From a virus: DNA of 64,000 nucleotides. Of the stretch, positions 1,268 to 52,755 are shown piece after piece. The notes under the pieces are model-generated. The model saw nothing but the letters and a program-made list of their open reading frames with translations, ran no database searches and had not been told where the DNA came from. The position numbers and the translations under genes are program-made. The stretch's first letter is position 1. Each line of letters opens with the position of its first letter. The stretch lies in the UHGV virus genome UHGV-0141727. One strand, written 5' to 3'.

Positions 1268-1290
1268 AAAAGCCCCGGCCAGGCCGGGGC
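1265..1290 (-). terminator. rho-independent terminator after immI-like module 1
   Basis: GCCCCGG/CCGGGGC stem at 1272-1290, followed on the minus strand by UUUUUU (A-run 1266-1271 on plus). Confidence 0.6.
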
Positions 1291-1298
1291 ATCACACT

Positions 1299-1496
1299 TC
1301 AAGTTACGATCCAATCATTACCGACTGCATCCGCCGTCGATAAATCGACTTCCCGGATCTGGTATCCATTAATACAAAACCATCCAGTGGTAGAGCTATT
1401 ATCAGGCCAGACCCATACACCAACACTCCATGCTTTACGGCGGCACACTTCAGCCTGTCCTTCCCTGATTTTTTTTACCGCCTGCATGATGTCCAT
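1299..1496 (-). CDS. DUF2829 / Tad2-like small protein
   Basis: ORF 1299..1511. Start MDIMQAV (ATG 1496) overlaps the upstream stop as TGATG. The pattern AVKKIREGxxVxRRxAW ... DLSTADAVGNDWIV matches the DUF2829 N- and C-terminal signatures as recalled. Paralogous to the C-terminus of 51286..52227. Confidence 0.55.
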   Translation of the reverse strand: MDIMQAVKKIREGQAEVCRRKAWSVGVWVWPDNSSTTGWFCINGYQIREVDLSTADAVGNDWIVT

Positions 1497-2203
1497 CACT
1501 CGCCTCCCCAACCGATTACCTGGAATTGCCCCATCCTTGGGTGATACCAGCGTTTTCCTCGGTGTTCAGCCTCCGACATCATCAGGGTAAAGGCATTCAT
1601 GAAGGGAGATAAGGCCACAATAGTACGACGCGACAATACCCCCTCTGGCGTCAAAAACTCATGCGTATCTGTGGGGATCCGGTAAGCGTTGACCAAGTTA
1701 CGGCATTTGGCTTCAGTCAGGCCGCATTTCGCCGCTAACTGGCGATAGCCAATGTAACCTTCCGGCATGTTGCCCTTCTTGATCTGCTCGACGGTTTCAG
1801 CGACCTGGCTAACCTTTGACTCAACAGCATGAAGCCGCTTTTGCTGCTGAACTGCATTCGCAGCCATTGCAGCGATCATCTCTATTTCGGTCAACGGCTG
1901 GCGTACTTGTTCTTCCAGTTCGCGCCAGCGGTCCACCAGCCGGGCGGTAAATTCGGGAGAAAGCTGCGCAACGACAATGATACTGTCACGCTTGCCTTGC
2001 TCGCCTTCGAAGAAATAGGCTTTTGTGTATTTATTAGGGCTAAGTGATTGATTATTCTCAACTGTAGCCAATGGCGTATGTTGGATAACTCCTTTAGCAA
2101 CAAGTCTTTCGATGCTGCGTTTAACATCAGAGTGACGACTTCCCACCAGTTCCGCGATCTCAATGCTGGTCATTGATGGCTTTTCGAGAATGCAGATATC
2201 CAT
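1496..2203 (-). CDS. Rha-family phage regulatory protein / antirepressor (immI-like module 1)
   Basis: N-terminal TSIEIAELVGSRHSDVxRSIERL (Phage_pRha-like). About 90% nt identity over several hundred bp to 51286..52227. Its ATG overlaps the icd-like stop (TGATG). Confidence 0.7.
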   Translation of the reverse strand: MDICILEKPSMTSIEIAELVGSRHSDVKRSIERLVAKGVIQHTPLATVENNQSLSPNKYTKAYFFEGEQGKRDSIIVVAQLSPEFTARLVDRWRELEEQVRQPLTEIEMIAAMAANAVQQQKRLHAVESKVSQVAETVEQIKKGNMPEGYIGYRQLAAKCGLTEAKCRNLVNAYRIPTDTHEFLTPEGVLSRRTIVALSPFMNAFTLMMSEAEHRGKRWYHPRMGQFQVIGWGGE

Positions 2204-2427
2204 CAGTGAGCCTCCGCAATGCCGGGATTGGTAATATTGCGATACCAGGGATTAGTGTTTGGTTGTGGGGAAGTAGAGAAACGACCAGTGAGAACGCCAT
2301 ACTGATCAGGGATCAGAGAACGGGCTTCTTTTTCAGTTGCGGCAATTGCGAAGTGATCACAATGTTTTTGCAGGGAGTGGAAACGCCAGATGAATTCTGG
2401 ACGTGAGCAAGGATTGGCATTAACCAT
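2203..2427 (-). CDS. icd: Icd-like (host cell division inhibitor-like) small protein
   Basis: C-terminal 74 codons of ORF 2203..2751. ATG 2427 is preceded by GAGG. EFIWRF...AATEKEARSL motif as in Icd-like proteins. Position upstream of, and coupled to, the antirepressor as in P1 icd-ant. Confidence 0.6.
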   Translation of the reverse strand: MVNANPCSRPEFIWRFHSLQKHCDHFAIAATEKEARSLIPDQYGVLTGRFSTSPQPNTNPWYRNITNPGIAEAH

Positions 2428-2483
2428 AGTTACGGCCTCATGTACAGGTTTAACAACCTGCAACCCGCTGCTAAACGGGTGGC

Positions 2484-2551
2484 AGGACGTGACGGGGTTA
2501 GCAGACTGGCGTACATGAAACCAGCAGGCCGAAGCCTCCCCATCACGCCCC
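2484..2551 (-). ncRNA. c4: c4-like antisense RNA (module 1)
   Basis: 68 nt with a 14-bp closing stem (GGGGCGUGAUGGGG / CCCCGUCACGUCCU). Contains an AGGC-UUCG-GCCU hairpin and a CUGG/CCAG hairpin with an 11-nt loop carrying CAUGUAC. Single-stranded CUGCUAA follows, and 3' GCCA. The loop and single-stranded boxes are complementary to boxes at 2642-2636/2628-2622 and 2474-2468/2445-2438. Confidence 0.6.
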
Positions 2552-2583
2552 ACCATAATTTGGGCGTAACGTGGTTTACGGAC

Positions 2584-2614
2584 ACAAAAATACCGCAATA
2601 TCGGATATCTGCGG
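2584..2614 (-). terminator. terminator-like hairpin between the a1/b1 boxes and the c4-like RNA
   Basis: Minus strand CCGCAGAUAU-CCG-AUAUUGCGG followed by UAUUUUUGUGU. An analogous element is present in module 2. Confidence 0.4.
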
Positions 2615-2742
2615 TTGTCCGCATGTACATTCAGGCTGCTAAACCCGGTCGCAGAATTTGCTACGACGGCATGAATATAAGCCTGAACATTAGAAAGATC
2701 AACAGAATTTTTATCAGATGCTGTTTTTTTGTGACGATGTAA

Positions 2743-2788
2743 ATCATACATTCCTGATTAGAAACATCAATTTAATTTTCTAACACAC
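2743..2788 (-). promoter_or_regulatory. promoter-operator of immI-like module 1
   Basis: Minus strand GTGTGTTAGAAAAT-taaaTTGATGTTTCTAATCA-ggaatg-TATGAT. The -35 is TTGATG (2770-2765), the -10 is TATGAT (2748-2743), spacer 16. The palindromic operator overlaps the -35. Confidence 0.6.
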
Positions 2789-5012: not shown

Positions 5013-6698
5013 TTAATTATTGCTCATCACAAATTTTGCAAAGTTGATTAATTGTTCTTGCGTCCAGTTTTCCGGATCGTCACCGGACGACAACGGCGCG
5101 GATTCGTACATACCATGCTCGTTGTTTTGCTCTGATTCATTCGCCTTAAACTCTTTGATCATTACGTTGAGAGTGTCATCGTCGATACGAAGCTGTTCGG
5201 TGAACAGATAGCGCATAAACGCGTCGCTACCCGCCAGTTTCGGGTTGTTCTGGATCTGGTCCATTATTTGCGAGATGACAGCTACGAAGTTGGCGCGCGC
5301 ATCCAGCTCTCGGTTTTCCTCTTCCTGGATAGCTGTGTTCATTGAGTTGAATTGCACGTCATAAGGACGGTTTTTTTCGGTGTAAACCTTCCCGTATTTA
5401 TAAGCGAGGTGAATGTCATGAAGCCGATAAATAGTCCGCTGGGCGGCCTGTCTGATCCAGTTCGCGCGTAATGCGGCCTGGATAGCTGTTTGCTGCCAAC
5501 CGCCTTCTCCAAGCCCCCCACTCATCTGATCAGCCCAGCCAAGCATTGTTGCGTCAATGCCGAGGCTTGCCGCGAGCTGTCGGAGATGAAACATAACGTC
5601 TTCGATACCACTGATATCTGCGGGTATAGATTGCGTATCAATGGTGATCCCGTTCTTCCCATCCCCCATGACAGGTATCAGATGGTTAAGTACAGATGGG
5701 AGAGCATTAGAATTAATTGACCGTTGCGCTACGAGGTCGCTATGGCGCTTCAGTGCCTGGCTGACCCCGCGCGTATAATTCGCCGCGTTTACCGGATCTA
5801 TCGTGTTCGTTGTGAGTGCAATCAGGCGATCAATTTTTGCAGCGTTGTTTCGCGTTGCTTTCAGCGCAGCAAGCGCGGCACATAAATTCAGGTAGGGTTC
5901 ATAACTGTATTCAAGAAACGACGTACCGTAGTTCTGTGTCTCCATTAACGGCTTGTCCTGCTGTTCACTAAGCAAGGAATAGCCTGTAGTGCCGTAAGTT
6001 ACTGGCATTACTTTATGCTGAGGCGTCCAGTACGGGTTTTTCATGGAAACCAGATTCCACGGCTCGGTTATAACTCTGCGCAAAGTATGCGTGTCCAGAA
6101 TGTAATCACCGCTGAATCCGACAAGTTGGCTACCGCGATAAAACTCCTGAACGAAATGAGGGAGCGTGTAATAGCTCGACTCAATTCCAGTTATCCCCTT
6201 CCCTTGCTCTGCATATGGACGGATATACGACACACCGAAAATAGCCATGATCATGGCCCACGATGGAAGGCCATCATTAATCATTGAGCTTAAATCAGCG
6301 GTCAATTCCTCACATCGACTTACAGCCTCCTTATCCGCCCCATTTTTCGGAGCGAGAATAAATGCGAGGCCTGTTTTTTTTGATGGAGCCAGAGAATGCG
6401 CAATGTGAATGTTTAATGCTGTGGAGATAGTCGGACTTTTCGCCATCGTCTCCAGTATGTTGTATTTTTGCAGGCGGTCACTCGGTAATTCTGCCGATAT
6501 AGATACTGTATCCGCCGCGCTTGTCATTCCATCGCTATTGCTCCCCAGGATGCCTGGACGCAAGGCGGACAGGCCAGAACGAGCAACGACGCTATGCCCG
6601 CTCGCAAATACGACCGGATCGGCAGGCGTAACATCACCACCGCTGAAGGCTTTCTTCAATGCCGACAGAAAGCCCTTGTTTTTGTCTTTCGTTGCCAT
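5013..6698 (-). CDS. portal protein (P1 Prt position)
   Basis: 561 aa. Size and position upstream of the protease-like gene, with an acidic C-terminus. Call by synteny only. Confidence 0.55.
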   Translation of the reverse strand: MATKDKNKGFLSALKKAFSGGDVTPADPVVFASGHSVVARSGLSALRPGILGSNSDGMTSAADTVSISAELPSDRLQKYNILETMAKSPTISTALNIHIAHSLAPSKKTGLAFILAPKNGADKEAVSRCEELTADLSSMINDGLPSWAMIMAIFGVSYIRPYAEQGKGITGIESSYYTLPHFVQEFYRGSQLVGFSGDYILDTHTLRRVITEPWNLVSMKNPYWTPQHKVMPVTYGTTGYSLLSEQQDKPLMETQNYGTSFLEYSYEPYLNLCAALAALKATRNNAAKIDRLIALTTNTIDPVNAANYTRGVSQALKRHSDLVAQRSINSNALPSVLNHLIPVMGDGKNGITIDTQSIPADISGIEDVMFHLRQLAASLGIDATMLGWADQMSGGLGEGGWQQTAIQAALRANWIRQAAQRTIYRLHDIHLAYKYGKVYTEKNRPYDVQFNSMNTAIQEEENRELDARANFVAVISQIMDQIQNNPKLAGSDAFMRYLFTEQLRIDDDTLNVMIKEFKANESEQNNEHGMYESAPLSSGDDPENWTQEQLINFAKFVMSNN

Positions 6699-35559: not shown

Positions 35560-35629
35560 CCTCTTCAGATTTTTTGTTGGTGTGATATGTGTACCAATTT
35601 GTAACCATTTATGGGCTTAAATGGTGTGG

Positions 35630-36424
35630 TTATGGTTCCTTTTTAGTGTTGCTTTGGAGCGCATCGATTACACCTTGTGGCATGATCAAACTGATTGCCG
35701 GACTCATTACTTCATCGCCCAGTAGAGAACCGGTTAACGTAATAGCTACAGCATTTTCCAGTCCCTGTTTGGCTTTTCCGGTAGAGTCCTTAACTTGCTG
35801 TGCAAGTGTTGAGAGACTACTGCTCGTGTTGTTTATTGCATTTATTTGTTCTGTTGCTGCTTCCACAGCGTCTTTTAGTGCTTTGATCTCTTCTTCTGTT
35901 AGTGCTGGTTGCTGTGTTGTTCCGGTGGAACTTCCGTTGCCTGAAGCCTCCTCGCTTGACGCCTGAACTTTTGCATTTATAGCGGTCATAGCTGAAGTGA
36001 TTGGCACCAGTTCAAATGCTGCCAACGCGTCAATAAGCGATTGCGGATGCAGGGTATCTCCCATAACTGTTACGAGAGCAAATTCTGGCGCAGGAGATAA
36101 CTCATTACCTTTGACGTAACATTCCCAGCCAATTTTCATCTGAAGTAATTCAGTTGGCGAAGTATACGGAGACAGCGAGTCGGCTAAATGGGTTGCTTCT
36201 GCACTGACAGTTTTCAGTTGTTCTGAAAAGACAGAAAGCTGATTGACCCATGAAACCACCGACGCCGGGTATGCTTTATCCTTCAGGATAAGAGCCTGGA
36301 TATTCTCTTCCAGAGAACTGGCATTGGATGACGCTGTTTTACTTAGCGTGATAGATGCAGGCGTAGTTGTGCCTGATGCATTTAGAATTTTGAATGCGTT
36401 AACTTCAGCGATTGAATCAAGCAT
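35630..36424 (-). CDS. hypothetical protein downstream of PAAR gene
   Basis: 264 aa, Ser/Thr/Ala-rich. Its start overlaps the PAAR stop. Confidence 0.35.
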   Translation of the reverse strand: MLDSIAEVNAFKILNASGTTTPASITLSKTASSNASSLEENIQALILKDKAYPASVVSWVNQLSVFSEQLKTVSAEATHLADSLSPYTSPTELLQMKIGWECYVKGNELSPAPEFALVTVMGDTLHPQSLIDALAAFELVPITSAMTAINAKVQASSEEASGNGSSTGTTQQPALTEEEIKALKDAVEAATEQINAINNTSSSLSTLAQQVKDSTGKAKQGLENAVAITLTGSLLGDEVMSPAISLIMPQGVIDALQSNTKKEP

Positions 36425-46080: not shown

Positions 46081-46082
46081 CA

Positions 46083-46104
46083 AAGCCCACCTTAAGGTGG
46101 GCTT
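46083..46104. terminator. hairpin terminator between convergent genes
   Basis: AAGCCCACC-UUAA-GGUGGGCUU. The U-rich tail is better on the minus strand (UUGUUAUUUU). Confidence 0.5.
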
Positions 46105-46305
46105 CGCCAGAAATTATTTTCTGGTATTCAGAACGCCATTACCGGACTTTGCCTTGACCAAGTATCACAACTGGTTTGACCTGTTATGATAGCTGGTTGC
46201 GGGATGTCTGAATTTCTTCAGTCTGCTGCATCCTCGAAGGTTTGGTTCAACATGTACCATTCCTTCACCGTCATAATAGTGTACTATTCACGTCCTTGCA
46301 AACAC

Positions 46306-51285: not shown

Positions 51286-52227
51286 TTAACTAATAATCCA
51301 GTCGGTTGCTGCTACATCTTCTGGCTGCAAATCAATCGCACAGATCTTACCGTCGCGAATGGTGCGCCAGTTTTTCCGTGAGCCTCTTTCGGGCCATACC
51401 CAGACACTTTCAGGCCAGGATGCTCGACGGCATACGGTTGCATACCCTGTTTTAATCTTCTCTCTGGCGGTATGCAACGACAGGTTTGCCTTTGGACTTT
51501 CAGGCACAGGATGGTGAATGGCCTGAAATAGCCCCATCTTGGGATGATACCAGCGTTTGTTACGTGGTTCTGCCTCCGACATAACCTGCTTAAAGGCTTT
51601 CCGGAAGGGGGCCAGGGCCACAATGGAACGTCGCGCAAGCAAACCGTCGGGAGTTAAAAACTCATGCGTATCAGTGGGTATCCGGTAAGCGTTGACCAGG
51701 TTACGGCATTTGGCTTCAGTCAGGCCACATTTCGCCGCCAACTGGCGGTAGCCAATGTAGCCTTCCGGAATATTGCCTTTCTTGATCTGCTCGACGGTTT
51801 CAGCGACTTTGGACACTTGTGCCGATACTTCGGCTACCTGGGCATTAACGGCGTTGATCCGGCGTTCATGCTCAAGATGCATTTGCGCCATTTCAGCCAG
51901 AATTTCGGCTTTTGATTTTAACTGTGCCCGGGCATTCTCCAGTTCGCGCCAGCGGTCCACCAGCCGGGCGGTGAATTCGGGAGAGAGCTGCGCGACGACA
52001 ATAATGCTGTCTCGTTTGCCTTGCTCGCCTTCAAAGACATAGACCGGATCTTTGACAACCTTCCCTAAGTTATTGATTCTTTCGACGAACTCATTTTGAG
52101 TTTCTCGGATGACACCGCTCGCCATCATATTGCGAATGGTACGTAAAACGTTGCCATGACGACTACCAACTAACTCTGCAATATCCAGGCTATTCATTGT
52201 AGCTTTTTGGGTGATAGACAGATTCAT
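51286..52227 (-). CDS. Rha-family antirepressor fused to C-terminal DUF2829/Tad2-like domain (immI-like module 2)
   Basis: 313 aa. N-terminus NSLDIAELVGSRHGNVLRTIRNM. The middle is about 90% identical to 1496..2203. C-terminus REKIKTGYATVCRRASW...DLQPEDVAATDWIIS parallels ORF 1299..1496. Confidence 0.7.
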   Translation of the reverse strand: MNLSITQKATMNSLDIAELVGSRHGNVLRTIRNMMASGVIRETQNEFVERINNLGKVVKDPVYVFEGEQGKRDSIIVVAQLSPEFTARLVDRWRELENARAQLKSKAEILAEMAQMHLEHERRINAVNAQVAEVSAQVSKVAETVEQIKKGNIPEGYIGYRQLAAKCGLTEAKCRNLVNAYRIPTDTHEFLTPDGLLARRSIVALAPFRKAFKQVMSEAEPRNKRWYHPKMGLFQAIHHPVPESPKANLSLHTAREKIKTGYATVCRRASWPESVWVWPERGSRKNWRTIRDGKICAIDLQPEDVAATDWIIS

Positions 52228-52442
52228 CAGTGCACCTCCACGCAGTTCATTGGTAGATTCCAGTAATTGAGGATCTCCATCGCATCAAGAGTGAAGCGTG
52301 CGGCAAAAATGCAGGGTTCTTCGGGAAGGTATGAGCGCGCCTCTGCTTCGGTAGCAGCCATTACGCAGATATAGAGGTGTTTTTGGCAGGAATAGAAACG
52401 CCAGATAAATTCAGAATGAGTTGGGGTAGGGATAGTAGCCAT
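52227..52442 (-). CDS. icd: Icd-like small protein
   Basis: 71 aa. EFIWRFYS...AATEAEARSYL. AAGGAGG SD. Stop overlaps the antirepressor ATG (TGATG). Confidence 0.65.
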   Translation of the reverse strand: MATIPTPTHSEFIWRFYSCQKHLYICVMAATEAEARSYLPEEPCIFAARFTLDAMEILNYWNLPMNCVEVH

Positions 52443-52502
52443 ATTGGCAGCCTCCTTTGACTAAGTTAAGGAGCTACCGCGTGAGGTTCCAATCTCAATG
52501 GC

Positions 52503-52578
52503 GGTAGCACTGACTGGGTTGGAACTACCGGCGTCAAAGGGAACCGGCCTGCCTTTCGGCAGCCCAGCCAGCACTACC
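52503..52578 (-). ncRNA. c4: c4-like antisense RNA (module 2)
   Basis: 76 nt with a 16-bp closing stem (GGUAGUGCUGGCUGGG / CCCAGUCAGUGCUACC). Contains a GCC-GAAA-GGC hairpin and a 5-bp hairpin with a 12-nt loop carrying CCUUUGAC. Single-stranded GUUCCAA follows, and 3' GCCA. Complementary boxes lie at 52681-52675/52664-52657 and 52492-52486/52461-52454. Confidence 0.65.
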
Positions 52579-52626
52579 ATTGATCTCTGAGCTAAACGCT
52601 ACGTATGGCTGTGCGATGGCATGACA

Positions 52627-52650
52627 CAAAAAAAGACGCTTTCGGCGTCT
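52627..52650 (-). terminator. rho-independent terminator between the a1/b1 boxes and the c4-like RNA
   Basis: Minus strand AGACGC-CGAAA-GCGUCU followed by U7. Confidence 0.7.
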
Positions 52651-52755
52651 GTGTCGCCTTTGACATTATCCGGGGTTCCAATCCCGGCACCCGTTTTTCT
52701 AAGGTGCCGTAGAAATATACCCCACGATAATGCCAGGGCGCAACTGTGTGTTTTC

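What the first reader, a model, noticed from the sequence alone, without database searches (positions are those of the whole stretch)
51286..52227. DUF2829 (Thoeris anti-defence Tad2-like) domain fused to, or coupled with, the antirepressor
The last ~65 aa of the 313-aa Rha-type protein (REKIKTGYATVCRRASWPESVWVW...DLQPEDVAATDWIIS) and the separate 65-aa ORF 1299..1496 (MDIMQAVKKIREGQAEVCRRKAWSVGVWVW...DLSTADAVGNDWIVT) both fit the DUF2829 pattern: xxAlxxlxxGxxVxRxxW near the N-terminus and D..A.DW at the C-terminus.

DUF2829 is the family of Tad2, a sponge for Thoeris signalling nucleotides. In module 1 the domain is a separate, translationally coupled gene (TGATG overlap). In module 2 it is fused in frame.

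This places a putative immune-signal sponge under c4/operator control. It would then be produced exactly when the prophage derepresses or when a new cell is infected.
Basis: inference. Interest (0 to 1): 0.7.

Follow-up and report, generated by a model that had tools for sequence, protein, structure and literature searches.

The report
Divergent Tad2-like domain in antirepressor modules
A small protein domain, distantly related to phage "sponges" that soak up bacterial immune signals, is attached to or translated together with the switch proteins of a P1-like plasmid prophage; its signal-binding pocket is only half conserved, so what it does here is still open.

Summary
The window is a phage D6-like plasmid prophage (about 92% identical to D6). 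It carries two c4-icd-ant-type (immI-like) modules. A 65-aa unit occurs as a separate, translationally coupled ORF (1299-1496, TGATG overlap) and as the C-terminus of the 313-aa Rha-type protein (51286-52227). The two copies are 38% identical (E 1e-15).

The sponge interpretation is not supported as stated. Two of the four main gcADPR contacts of SPO1 Tad2 (N26, W73) are replaced.

New here: the domain always lies downstream of a C4 antisense RNA, in four architectures. These are split, fused to a Rha-type body, fused to an ORF6N-type body, and alone as the only ORF after C4.

I favour a role tied to the antirepressor module (0.4) over an altered-specificity sponge (0.3). It is a new variant of a known kind, of moderate interest.

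The parts
51286..51483 (-). C-terminal domain with a DUF2829/Tad2-like fold (residues 249-313 plus stop) of the 313-aa Rha-type protein. This is the fused copy, type B.
   Evidence: 38% identical to the 65-aa ORF, E 1e-15. Pfam Tad2-like E 0.76, matching profile positions 4-72 of 73. phrog_7385 E 8e-12. Full-length AlphaFold model gives a helix at 251-259 and five strands, after a disordered linker at 238-248.
51286..52227 (-). 313-aa Rha-type Ant-like protein of module 2. It consists of a winged helix-turn-helix domain, a long helix, a middle domain, a linker and the Tad2-like domain.
   Evidence: Pfam Phage_pRha 37.5 bits (cut-off 29.9) at residues 11-98. phrog_63 'anti-repressor Ant' E 6e-61. 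D6 orf82. AlphaFold model, pLDDT 59.
52227..52442 (-). icd-like ORF (71 aa) of module 2, overlapping the start of the Rha-type gene.
   Evidence: phrog_1426 E 4e-41. D6 orf83 is annotated 'similar to P1 gene icd'.
52497..52584 (-). C4 antisense RNA of module 2.
   Evidence: Rfam RF01695, 77.1 bits (gathering score 45), full length.
52629..52707 (-). Leader element of module 2, matched by Rfam isrK. It sits where the a1/b1 C4 target element sits in module 1.
   Evidence: Rfam RF01394, 62.7 bits. Alignment of the upstream regions.
1299..1496 (-). 65-aa stand-alone protein with a DUF2829/Tad2-like fold. This is the split copy, type A, and the last gene of module 1.
   Evidence: Pfam Tad2-like E 0.011, 16.7 bits, matching profile positions 1-72 of 73. 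phrog_7385 E 4e-47 and phrog_643 E 0.0024. AlphaFold model pLDDT 75.8 with topology a1-b1-b2-b3-b4-a-b5. Tad2 proteins are the top fold matches.
1496..2203 (-). 235-aa Rha-type Ant-like protein of module 1. It has no C-terminal domain, and its stop codon overlaps the start of the 65-aa ORF.
   Evidence: Pfam Phage_pRha 34.4 bits. 63% identical to residues 1-237 of the 313-aa protein. TGATG junction.
2203..2427 (-). icd-like ORF (about 74 aa) of module 1. The 182-aa ORF listed at 2203-2751 is a mechanical read-through across the C4 gene.
   Evidence: phrog_1426 matches only residues 109-180 of the 182-aa ORF. D6 orf19 is 225 nt.
2475..2560 (-). C4 antisense RNA of module 1.
   Evidence: Rfam RF01695, 71.7 bits.
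2628..2680 (-). a1/b1 target element for C4 RNA in the leader of module 1.
   Evidence: Rfam RF03163, 53.9 bits.
1272..1290 (-). Intrinsic terminator that closes module 1, directly after the 65-aa ORF.
   Evidence: 8 G-C pairs, a 3-nt loop and a TTTTTT tail.

Best explanation
What it is (confidence about 0.8): a divergent, minimal 65-aa member of the DUF2829/Tad2-like fold superfamily. It is the terminal component of the C4-antisense-RNA-gated, immI-like modules of D6-group phage-plasmids.

How it most likely works (inferred, confidence 0.4): it is a functional component of the antirepressor module itself, not a free-riding immune-signal sponge. It is made only when C4 control is lifted, that is on infection or derepression. 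It is made in fixed proportion to the Rha- or ORF6N-type Ant-like protein, either in cis as a fusion or in trans through TGATG coupling. I propose that it acts as the partner-binding or assembly end of that protein. It would contact the D6-type C1 repressor or another immunity component, or it would bring Ant chains together in the way Tad2 protomers assemble. Where it is the only ORF behind C4 (Raoultella-type elements), it would be a minimal antirepressor.

Shown here: the fold relationship, the gene arrangement, and the obligate linkage to C4. Inferred: physical cooperation with the Ant body and the protein-binding role.
For: Fused and split forms, the classical indication of a functional or physical partnership:
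- The same Ant body occurs with the domain in frame (313 aa) and with the domain as a one-base-overlapping downstream ORF.
- Among the 41 IMG/VR loci, 16 are split and most of the other 25 are fused; six of those 25 are cut or frameshifted.

The N-terminal DNA-binding domain is exchangeable, but the Tad2-like end is kept. CP043746.1 has a third module with an ORF6N N-terminus (Pfam 46.4 bits), the same middle domain and the same C-terminal domain.

Linkage to C4 is without exception. Every locus with at least 1.1 kb of upstream sequence has a C4 RNA on the same strand. In the Raoultella ornithinolytica plasmids and in a Logan contig, the domain (P0124, P0125) is the only ORF between the C4 RNA and a terminator or an opposite-strand gene. 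That is the position where the antirepressor is expected.

This branch is confined to the D6 group. A full HMMER scan of 1.84 billion representative proteins found only these proteins. Only D6 has it among 50,697 phage records. All 122 PLSDB plasmids with it come from Escherichia, Salmonella or Shigella, nearly all about 90 kb and non-mobilizable, as D6-like plasmid prophages are.

The canonical ligand pocket is not kept: N26 is S or P, and W73 is V or I.

The full-length model shows a long helix (83-149), a likely coiled coil, that would bring the C-terminal domains together.
Against: - No DUF2829 protein is known to act by binding a repressor. Every characterised member is an anti-defence protein (papers read).
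- The Ant body is not homologous to P1 Ant. Its antirepressor role is inferred only from its position.
- The Ant body exists widely without this domain. phrog_1726 ends where the middle domain ends. The domain is therefore an add-on.
- The two paralogues in one genome are only 38% identical, yet D6 has a single C1 gene. That is awkward if both bind the same target.
- A stand-alone, C4-controlled copy fits an autonomous anti-defence gene equally well.
- The confinement argument is limited by detection power. A 65-aa profile needs about 36 bits in a library of that size.
Confidence: 0.4

Rival explanations
1. The domain is an anti-defence sponge of the Tad2 kind. It oligomerises and sequesters a nucleotide-derived immune signal early in infection. 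Its pocket is remodelled, so its ligand is probably not canonical 1''-3' gcADPR. The Rha or ORF6N part would be an unrelated or autoregulatory neighbour, as in HTH-anti-CRISPR fusions (my knowledge, not tested here).
For: - All tested members sequester signals: gcADPR, His-ADPR and cyclic dinucleotides (PDB titles).
- W25 and D79, two ligand contacts, and the terminal D-W are kept across the whole branch.
- The domain can stand alone under C4 control.
- BFVD holds short DUF2829 proteins of 65-66 aa.
- Expression at infection is the right time for a sponge.
Against: - W73 is invariant in 36 relatives and is a main van der Waals contact, yet it is V or I here. N26 is S or P. Only 3 of the 10 named contact residues are kept.
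- Li et al. report the gcADPR site conserved in about 99% of Tad2 proteins. This branch falls outside that.
- The b2-b3 insertion with helix a2, which forms the Tad2 dimer interface, is absent.
- The Pfam scores are below the cut-off.
- A portable sponge would be expected in other phage contexts, yet this branch is found only in C4 modules.
- An operon tightly silenced by antisense RNA, with output tied one-to-one to a regulator, is an odd design for a stoichiometric sponge.
Confidence: 0.3
2. Ligand-gated antirepressor. The Tad2-like domain still binds a small nucleotide, such as a host immune or stress signal. It uses that binding to switch the attached or co-translated Ant-like protein on or off. 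The prophage's lysis-lysogeny decision would then depend on the host's signalling state.
For: This reading reconciles the nucleotide-binding ancestry of the fold with the fused/split linkage to a regulator and the partly kept pocket (W23, D56).
Against: There is no direct evidence and I know of no precedent in this family. The stand-alone copies have no attached regulator to gate. The pocket is half lost.
Confidence: 0.1
3. Chance resemblance. The 65-aa unit is a lineage-specific small beta-rich domain, or a linker-tail of Ant, that only looks like DUF2829 because small SH3-like barrels are common.
For: - All direct sequence scores are sub-threshold.
- A PDB sequence search finds no Tad2 chain.
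- A narrow ModTad2-clade HMM gives only 2-7 bits, with an empirical p of about 0.01-0.02 for three of the four members.
- hhalign probability is 50%.
Against: - The matches run end to end, with the same order of secondary-structure elements and the same R..W ... D....DW anchors.
- A control with P1 Coi gives probability 0.1.
Confidence: 0.15

Closest known systems
Tad2 (SPO1 Gp34.65, ModTad2, HgmTad2/AcrIIA7, SptTad2); Pfam PF11195 Tad2-like/DUF2829
   Same: - Predicted topology: an N-terminal helix, then an antiparallel sheet with a short helix before the last strand.
- End-to-end profile match.
- Kept anchor residues: R and W in b1 and the b1-b2 loop, and D....DW at the C-terminus.
- A phage-encoded small protein.
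   Different: - 65 aa against 85-104 aa, with no b2-b3 insertion or a2 helix.
- Below the Pfam cut-off.
- N26 and W73 equivalents are lost.
- It has its own signature, V-C-R-R-x-x-W-x-x-G-x-W-x-W-P.
- It occurs fused to, or coupled with, Rha- or ORF6N-type regulators.
- It always lies behind a C4 antisense RNA.
- Ligand binding, tetramer formation and anti-Thoeris activity are untested.
Phage P1/P7 immI operon (c4 - icd - ant1/ant2)
   Same: - A C4 antisense RNA with an a1/b1-type leader.
- An icd-like ORF overlapping the next gene.
- A larger protein in the ant position.
- Two products made in fixed proportion. P1 makes Ant1 and Ant2 from one frame; here there is Ant plus a coupled 65-aa protein.
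   Different: - The protein in the ant position is of the Rha or ORF6N type, with no detectable similarity to P1 Ant1.
- There are two modules per genome, and three in some plasmids.
- A Tad2-like terminal domain is added.
- No P1-type C1 operator sequence is present.
Rha / Roi-type phage regulators (PF09669; HK97 Roi according to the D6 annotation)
   Same: An N-terminal Rha winged helix-turn-helix domain followed by a helical middle region. The 235-aa protein of module 1 has exactly this architecture.
   Different: Ordinary family members, such as phrog_1726, end after the middle domain. Only the D6 group adds the Tad2-like unit.
P1 Coi (69-aa C1 inactivator)
   Same: A small phage protein of similar size that inactivates the P1 repressor. 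This is a functional precedent for a repressor antagonist of about 65 aa.
   Different: No sequence or profile similarity (hhalign probability 0.1). Coi is encoded in immC, not behind C4.

Membership tests
Pfam PF11195 Tad2-like (DUF2829) | Score at or above the curated gathering cut-off (25 bits). | tested here: not met
   The 65-aa ORF scores 16.7 bits (E 0.011). The fused copy scores 10.8 bits (E 0.76). The relative P0124 scores 23.9 bits (E 6e-5). Tad2-like is the top Pfam hit for these three and covers nearly the whole model; for the relative P0125 it ranks second (E 0.076), behind a short DSRB match.
Pfam PF11195 Tad2-like (DUF2829) | Profile-level homology to bona fide members. | tested here: met
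   hhalign of the branch alignment A3 against 36 PF11195 proteins gives E 1.6e-4 over 64 aligned columns, score 26.5. In 200 column shuffles the mean is 10.7, the sd 2.5 and the maximum 20.3. phrog_643 is hit by both sides. The hhalign probability is only 50%, so this is a remote relationship.
Pfam PF11195 Tad2-like (DUF2829) | The Tad2 fold: helix a1 followed by a five-stranded antiparallel sheet, with a short helix before the last strand. | tested here: met
Tad2 signal sponges (functional class) | Conserved gcADPR-binding residues: W25, N26, W73 and D79 of SPO1 Tad2, plus I63, T65, D67, H71, S76 and T78. | tested here: not met
   From the mapping: W25 corresponds to W23 (kept) and D79 to D56 (kept). 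N26 is S24 in the split copy and P in the fused copy. W73 is V50 or I. S76 is S or Q. 3 of the 10 residues are kept in each copy. W72 is invariant and N25 nearly invariant among the 36 relatives in A4.
Tad2 signal sponges (functional class) | Homotetramer with ligand pockets at the protomer interfaces. | not testable with these tools
   Only monomer prediction is available. The a2 helix that forms the Tad2 dimer interface has no counterpart in the 65-aa unit.
Tad2 signal sponges (functional class) | Binds gcADPR, His-ADPR or cyclic dinucleotides and blocks Thoeris or CBASS. | not testable with these tools
   This needs biochemistry and phage challenge assays.
P1-type immI module (c4-icd-ant) | A C4 antisense RNA upstream on the same strand. 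| tested here: met
   Rfam RF01695 scores 77.1 and 71.7 bits in the window. C4 is also found in all related loci with enough upstream sequence.
P1-type immI module (c4-icd-ant) | An icd-like ORF between c4 and the ant-position gene. | tested here: met
   phrog_1426 E 4e-41 and 4e-39. The D6 annotation reads 'similar to P1 gene icd'. The icd-like ORF is absent from the stand-alone Raoultella-type modules.
P1-type immI module (c4-icd-ant) | The ant-position protein is homologous to P1 Ant1/Ant2. | tested here: not met
   BLASTP of P1 Ant1 against the 313-aa protein gives a best E of 0.087, in a coiled-coil stretch only.
P1-type immI module (c4-icd-ant) | The product inactivates the C1 repressor. 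| not testable with these tools
   No experimental data were found. The D6 genome paper (PMC5800970) is not held.
Rha family regulators (PF09669) | An N-terminal Phage_pRha domain scoring above the cut-off. | tested here: met
   37.5 and 34.4 bits against a cut-off of 29.9, at residues 11-98.

The most novel reading that the evidence does not exclude
The Tad2-like domain is a sensor, not a sponge. It binds a host immune or stress nucleotide and thereby gates the attached or co-translated antirepressor. A D6-type plasmid prophage would then read the cell's defence signalling, for example during superinfection or abortive-infection signalling, and decide whether to stay lysogenic or to escape. 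A milder version is that the Tad2 fold has been re-used as the repressor-binding end of an antirepressor, which would be its first known function other than sequestration.
Probability: 0.1. Interest if true: 0.85.

Novelty: new variant of a known kind. Interest (0 to 1): 0.5.

Why it matters
D6-like plasmid prophages are common in E. coli, Salmonella and Shigella. PLSDB alone holds 122 plasmids with this domain, and individual protein clusters are seen on hundreds of contigs. In public annotation the 65-aa gene is 'hypothetical' and the 313-aa gene is simply 'Rha family transcriptional regulator'.

Recognising a Tad2-like fold that is hard-wired to C4-RNA-gated immunity modules gives two clear and cheap experiments:
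- Does it bind immune nucleotides?
- Does it take part in antirepression?

Either answer is useful. One would extend the Tad2 sponge family to a minimal 65-aa form with a different pocket, produced under lysogeny-switch control. The other would show a new, non-sponge use of the fold. The four architectures (split, two kinds of fusion, and stand-alone) are a natural dissection of the protein that can guide construct design.

Tried and rejected
1. PDB sequence searches with the branch profiles A1 and A3 found no Tad2 chain. The only hits were weak and spurious: a hexosaminidase and endonuclease I.
2. The search for homologous proteins with the 65-aa ORF found only near-identical copies and fragments.
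3. The full HMMER scan of 1.84 billion representatives added only P0124 and P0125. P0127 is a repeat protein and I treat it as spurious.
4. An HMM built from the narrow ModTad2 clade (A4) scores the branch at only 2-7 bits. I judged it too narrow a model and relied on the Pfam and hhalign results instead.
5. A scan of GTDB representative genomes found no relative.
6. tblastn against 50,697 phage records found only D6.
7. P1 Ant1 and P1 Coi show no similarity, so the idea that the domain is a known P1 antirepressor element is rejected.
8. A search for the P1 C1 operator consensus, allowing up to 3 mismatches, gave 0 hits in the window.
9. The afdb50 fold library was unavailable.
10. The D6 genome paper is not held.
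11. I could not walk along the Raoultella plasmid to see whether it has other Ant modules, because look-ups are restricted to window or search-returned proteins.
12. Counts of synonymous and non-synonymous changes against D6 were too few to be informative.
13. The full-length AlphaFold model has low confidence (pLDDT 59). I used it only for domain boundaries.
Full report
**Setting**

The window is a phage D6-like plasmid prophage. The two regions named in the finding are 92.0% and 91.5% identical to Escherichia phage D6 (NC_050154) over 92-97% of the query. In D6 the same genes are annotated as follows:
- orf17: hypothetical, 65 aa
- orf18: 'anti-repressor Ant, similar to HK97 Roi', 235 aa
- orf19: Icd-like
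- orf82: 'anti-repressor Ant', 313 aa
- orf83: Icd-like

Rfam finds a full-length C4 antisense RNA upstream of each icd-like ORF. One is at 2475-2560 (71.7 bits) and the other at 52497-52584 (77.1 bits), both on the minus strand. Module 1 has an a1/b1 target element at 2628-2680, and module 2 has an isrK-type match at the equivalent place.

**Check of the observation**

- The 313-aa ORF (51286-52227, -) and the 65-aa ORF (1299-1496, -) exist with the quoted sequences.
- The 65-aa protein aligns without gaps to residues 249-313 of the 313-aa protein: 38% identity, E 1e-15.
- Residues 1-237 of the 313-aa protein are 63% identical to the 235-aa protein that precedes the 65-aa ORF. The two modules therefore encode the same protein, once split and once fused.
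- The split junction is ...GGGGAGGCGAGTGATGGAC.... The stop and start codons overlap by one base and a GGAGG lies upstream.
- A strong terminator follows the 65-aa ORF.
- In the fused form, a proline-rich stretch predicted to be disordered (residues 238-248, HHPVPESPKAN) links the body to the domain.

**Is it DUF2829/Tad2-like?**

Direct Pfam scores are below the family cut-off of 25 bits. The 65-aa ORF scores 16.7 bits (E 0.011) and the fused copy 10.8 bits (E 0.76). In both cases Tad2-like is the best Pfam family and covers nearly the whole 73-position model. PDB sequence searches with profiles of the branch find no Tad2 chain.

A full HMMER scan of 1.84 billion representative proteins shows that the branch is tiny. 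Apart from copies from D6-type elements, it holds only two distant relatives, P0124 (96 aa) and P0125 (68 aa).

Several results link the branch to the Tad2 family:
- P0124 scores 23.9 bits (E 6e-5) on Pfam Tad2-like.
- phrog_643 is hit by the 65-aa ORF (E 0.0024, end to end) and by the solved ModTad2 protein (E 3e-5).
- I built an alignment of 36 bona fide PF11195 proteins found with the ModTad2 sequence. hhalign of the branch against it gives E 1.6e-4 over 64 columns. The score is 26.5. In 200 column shuffles the mean is 10.7, the sd 2.5 and the maximum 20.3. A reversed control gives 8.6.
- P1 Coi, a size-matched control, gives probability 0.1.

The fold evidence agrees:
- The AlphaFold model of the 65-aa protein (pLDDT 75.8) has the Tad2 order of elements, a1-b1-b2-b3-b4-short helix-b5. 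This matches the description of Tad2 in bioRxiv 10.1101/2023.05.01.538930.
- The ten best Foldseek matches in the PDB are all Tad2 structures: 8v3e, 8wje, 9eib, 8smf, 8smg and 8sme. TM is about 0.53 and E is 0.15-0.6.
- The best BFVD matches are DUF2829/Tad2-like proteins, some only 65-66 aa long, with probability up to 1.00.

Each score is weak, but all methods point to the same family. I put the probability of true, remote homology at about 0.8.

**Is the sponge pocket there?**

The SPO1 Tad2 paper names W25, N26, W73 and D79 as the main contacts to 1''-3' gcADPR. It also names I63, T65, D67, H71, S76 and T78. I recovered the SPO1 and ModTad2 chain sequences from the PDB and mapped them through the hhalign alignment.

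| SPO1 Tad2 residue | 65-aa ORF (split copy) | Fused copy |
|---|---|---|
| W25 | W23 (kept) | W (kept) |
| N26 | S24 | P |
| W73 | V50 | I |
| S76 | S53 (kept) | Q |
| T78 | A55 | E |
| D79 | D56 (kept) | D (kept) |

The terminal D61-W62 is also kept. At the W73 position, P0124 has Y and P0125 has F. Three of the ten named residues are kept in each copy.

In my 36-protein set, W72 is invariant and N25 nearly invariant. Li et al. state that the gcADPR site is conserved in about 99% of Tad2 proteins. The insertion between b2 and b3 that carries helix a2, part of the Tad2 dimer interface, is also missing. The branch has its own invariant signature, C18-R19-R20...W23...W28..P31. The fold is therefore Tad2-like, but the defining ligand site is half lost.

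**New context evidence**

The domain occurs in four architectures, always behind a C4 RNA.

| Architecture | Description | Where seen |
|---|---|---|
| (a) Split | 65-aa ORF coupled to a 235-aa Rha-type body | Window module 1, D6, 16 IMG/VR loci |
| (b) Fused to Rha | 308-313-aa Rha-type protein | Window module 2, D6, most of the other 25 IMG/VR loci (six are cut or frameshifted) |
| (c) Fused to ORF6N | N-terminus is ORF6N (Pfam 46.4 bits), with the same middle domain | A third module of some plasmids, e.g. CP043746.1, 332 aa |
| (d) Alone | The only ORF after C4 | Raoultella ornithinolytica plasmids and a Logan contig |

Details of architecture (d): in the Raoultella ornithinolytica plasmids (P0124), the order is a1/b1 element, C4 RNA (L004:5869-5956), a Shine-Dalgarno sequence and ATG at 6001, a 96-aa ORF, and a terminator-like hairpin. 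In the Logan contig (P0125), the 68-aa ORF again directly follows C4, but a 65-aa ORF of unknown function lies 160 nt downstream on the same strand before the first opposite-strand gene. The N-terminal extension of P0124 aligns with the linker of the fused form, so this form probably arose by deletion. It has nevertheless been kept intact, with the family motifs, in two lineages that differ strongly from each other.

An nhmmer model of the window's two C4 genes finds a C4 on the same strand in every locus with enough upstream sequence. In PLSDB the domain occurs in 122 plasmids (223 places). All are from Escherichia, Salmonella or Shigella, nearly all about 90 kb, and most are non-mobilizable. 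Among 50,697 phage records only D6 has it.

**What the larger protein is**

- The larger protein is not a P1 Ant homologue.
- It has a Rha winged helix-turn-helix domain at the N-terminus (37.5 bits), a long helix (83-149), and a middle domain with an HTH-like stretch (157-234; phrog_6610).
- Families such as phrog_1726 end where the middle domain ends. The Tad2-like unit is therefore an addition specific to the D6 group.
- 'Antirepressor' rests only on its position behind c4 and icd.
- D6 has a single C1-type repressor.
- No P1-type C1 operator is found in the window.

**Weighing the mechanisms**

Arguments for a role tied to the antirepressor module:
- The fused/split pattern, the one-base translational coupling, and the retention of the domain while the N-terminal DNA-binding domain is swapped.
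- The confinement of this branch to C4 modules.
- The stand-alone copy in the position where an antirepressor is expected.
- The loss of the canonical pocket.

I take this as the best explanation (0.4): a partner-binding or assembly end of the Ant-like protein, possibly a minimal antirepressor when it stands alone.

- It is the only known function of the fold.
- W23 and D56 are retained.
- The domain can stand alone.
- Expression at infection is the right time for a sponge.

A ligand-gated antirepressor (0.1) would combine both. Chance resemblance remains possible (0.15). None of these can be decided without binding and genetic tests, which are listed under next steps.

**Verdict**

The feature is a new variant of a known kind. 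No paper in the searched library links DUF2829 or Tad2 with antirepressor or immI modules. Interest is moderate (0.5).

Noticed in passing
window 52629-52707 (-): Rfam isrK (Hfq-binding sRNA of Salmonella Gifsy-1), 62.7 bits, lies in the leader of module 2. This is where module 1 has the c4-a1b1 target element (2628-2680). The two Rfam families may describe homologous leaders of C4-controlled operons.
   Followed up: partly
window 46082-46267 (-): A full-length Rfam sroH sRNA match (113 bits, gathering score 80) inside the prophage.
   Followed up: no
window 2203-2751 (-): The 182-aa ORF listed here is a mechanical read-through across the C4 RNA gene. Only its last 74 or so residues (2203-2427) match the Icd-like family phrog_1426. 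Residues 55-96 match a separate phrog (16064), which probably represents mis-called ORFs over C4.
   Followed up: partly
L008 (CP043746.1 46022-47439) and other PLSDB plasmids with 3 places: Some D6-like plasmids carry a third c4-icd-ant module near the capsid and spanin genes. Its Ant has an ORF6N N-terminus in place of Rha but the same middle and Tad2-like domains. The window has no C4 at the equivalent site.
   Followed up: yes
L004/L005 (Raoultella ornithinolytica plasmids, e.g. CP196041.1), L006/L007 (Logan contigs): Distant D6-like phage-plasmids have a minimal module: an a1/b1 element, a C4 RNA, and only the Tad2-like ORF (96 or 68 aa), with no icd or Ant body. I could not check whether these elements have other Ant modules.
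   Followed up: partly
L038, L040, L041, L042 (IMG/VR): Four loci share a frameshift in the Ant body that leaves a 120-aa ORF ending in the intact Tad2-like domain. This may be a pseudogene, a sequencing error or a truncated functional form.
   Followed up: no
NZ_MK356558.1 (Salmonella sp. plasmid, 168,834 bp) 35585-35773: An unannotated copy of the domain at only 54% identity to the 65-aa ORF. It lies on a much larger plasmid than the usual 90 kb, so it may be a further allele or a cointegrate.
   Followed up: no
window modules 1 and 2, residues about 150-237 of both Ant-like proteins: The middle domain is nearly identical between the two modules. The N-terminal winged helix-turn-helix domains and the Tad2-like domains are much more diverged (38% identity for the latter). 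Database homologues show every combination of N-terminal alleles (P0109, P0114, P0121). This indicates recombination between modules.
   Followed up: partly
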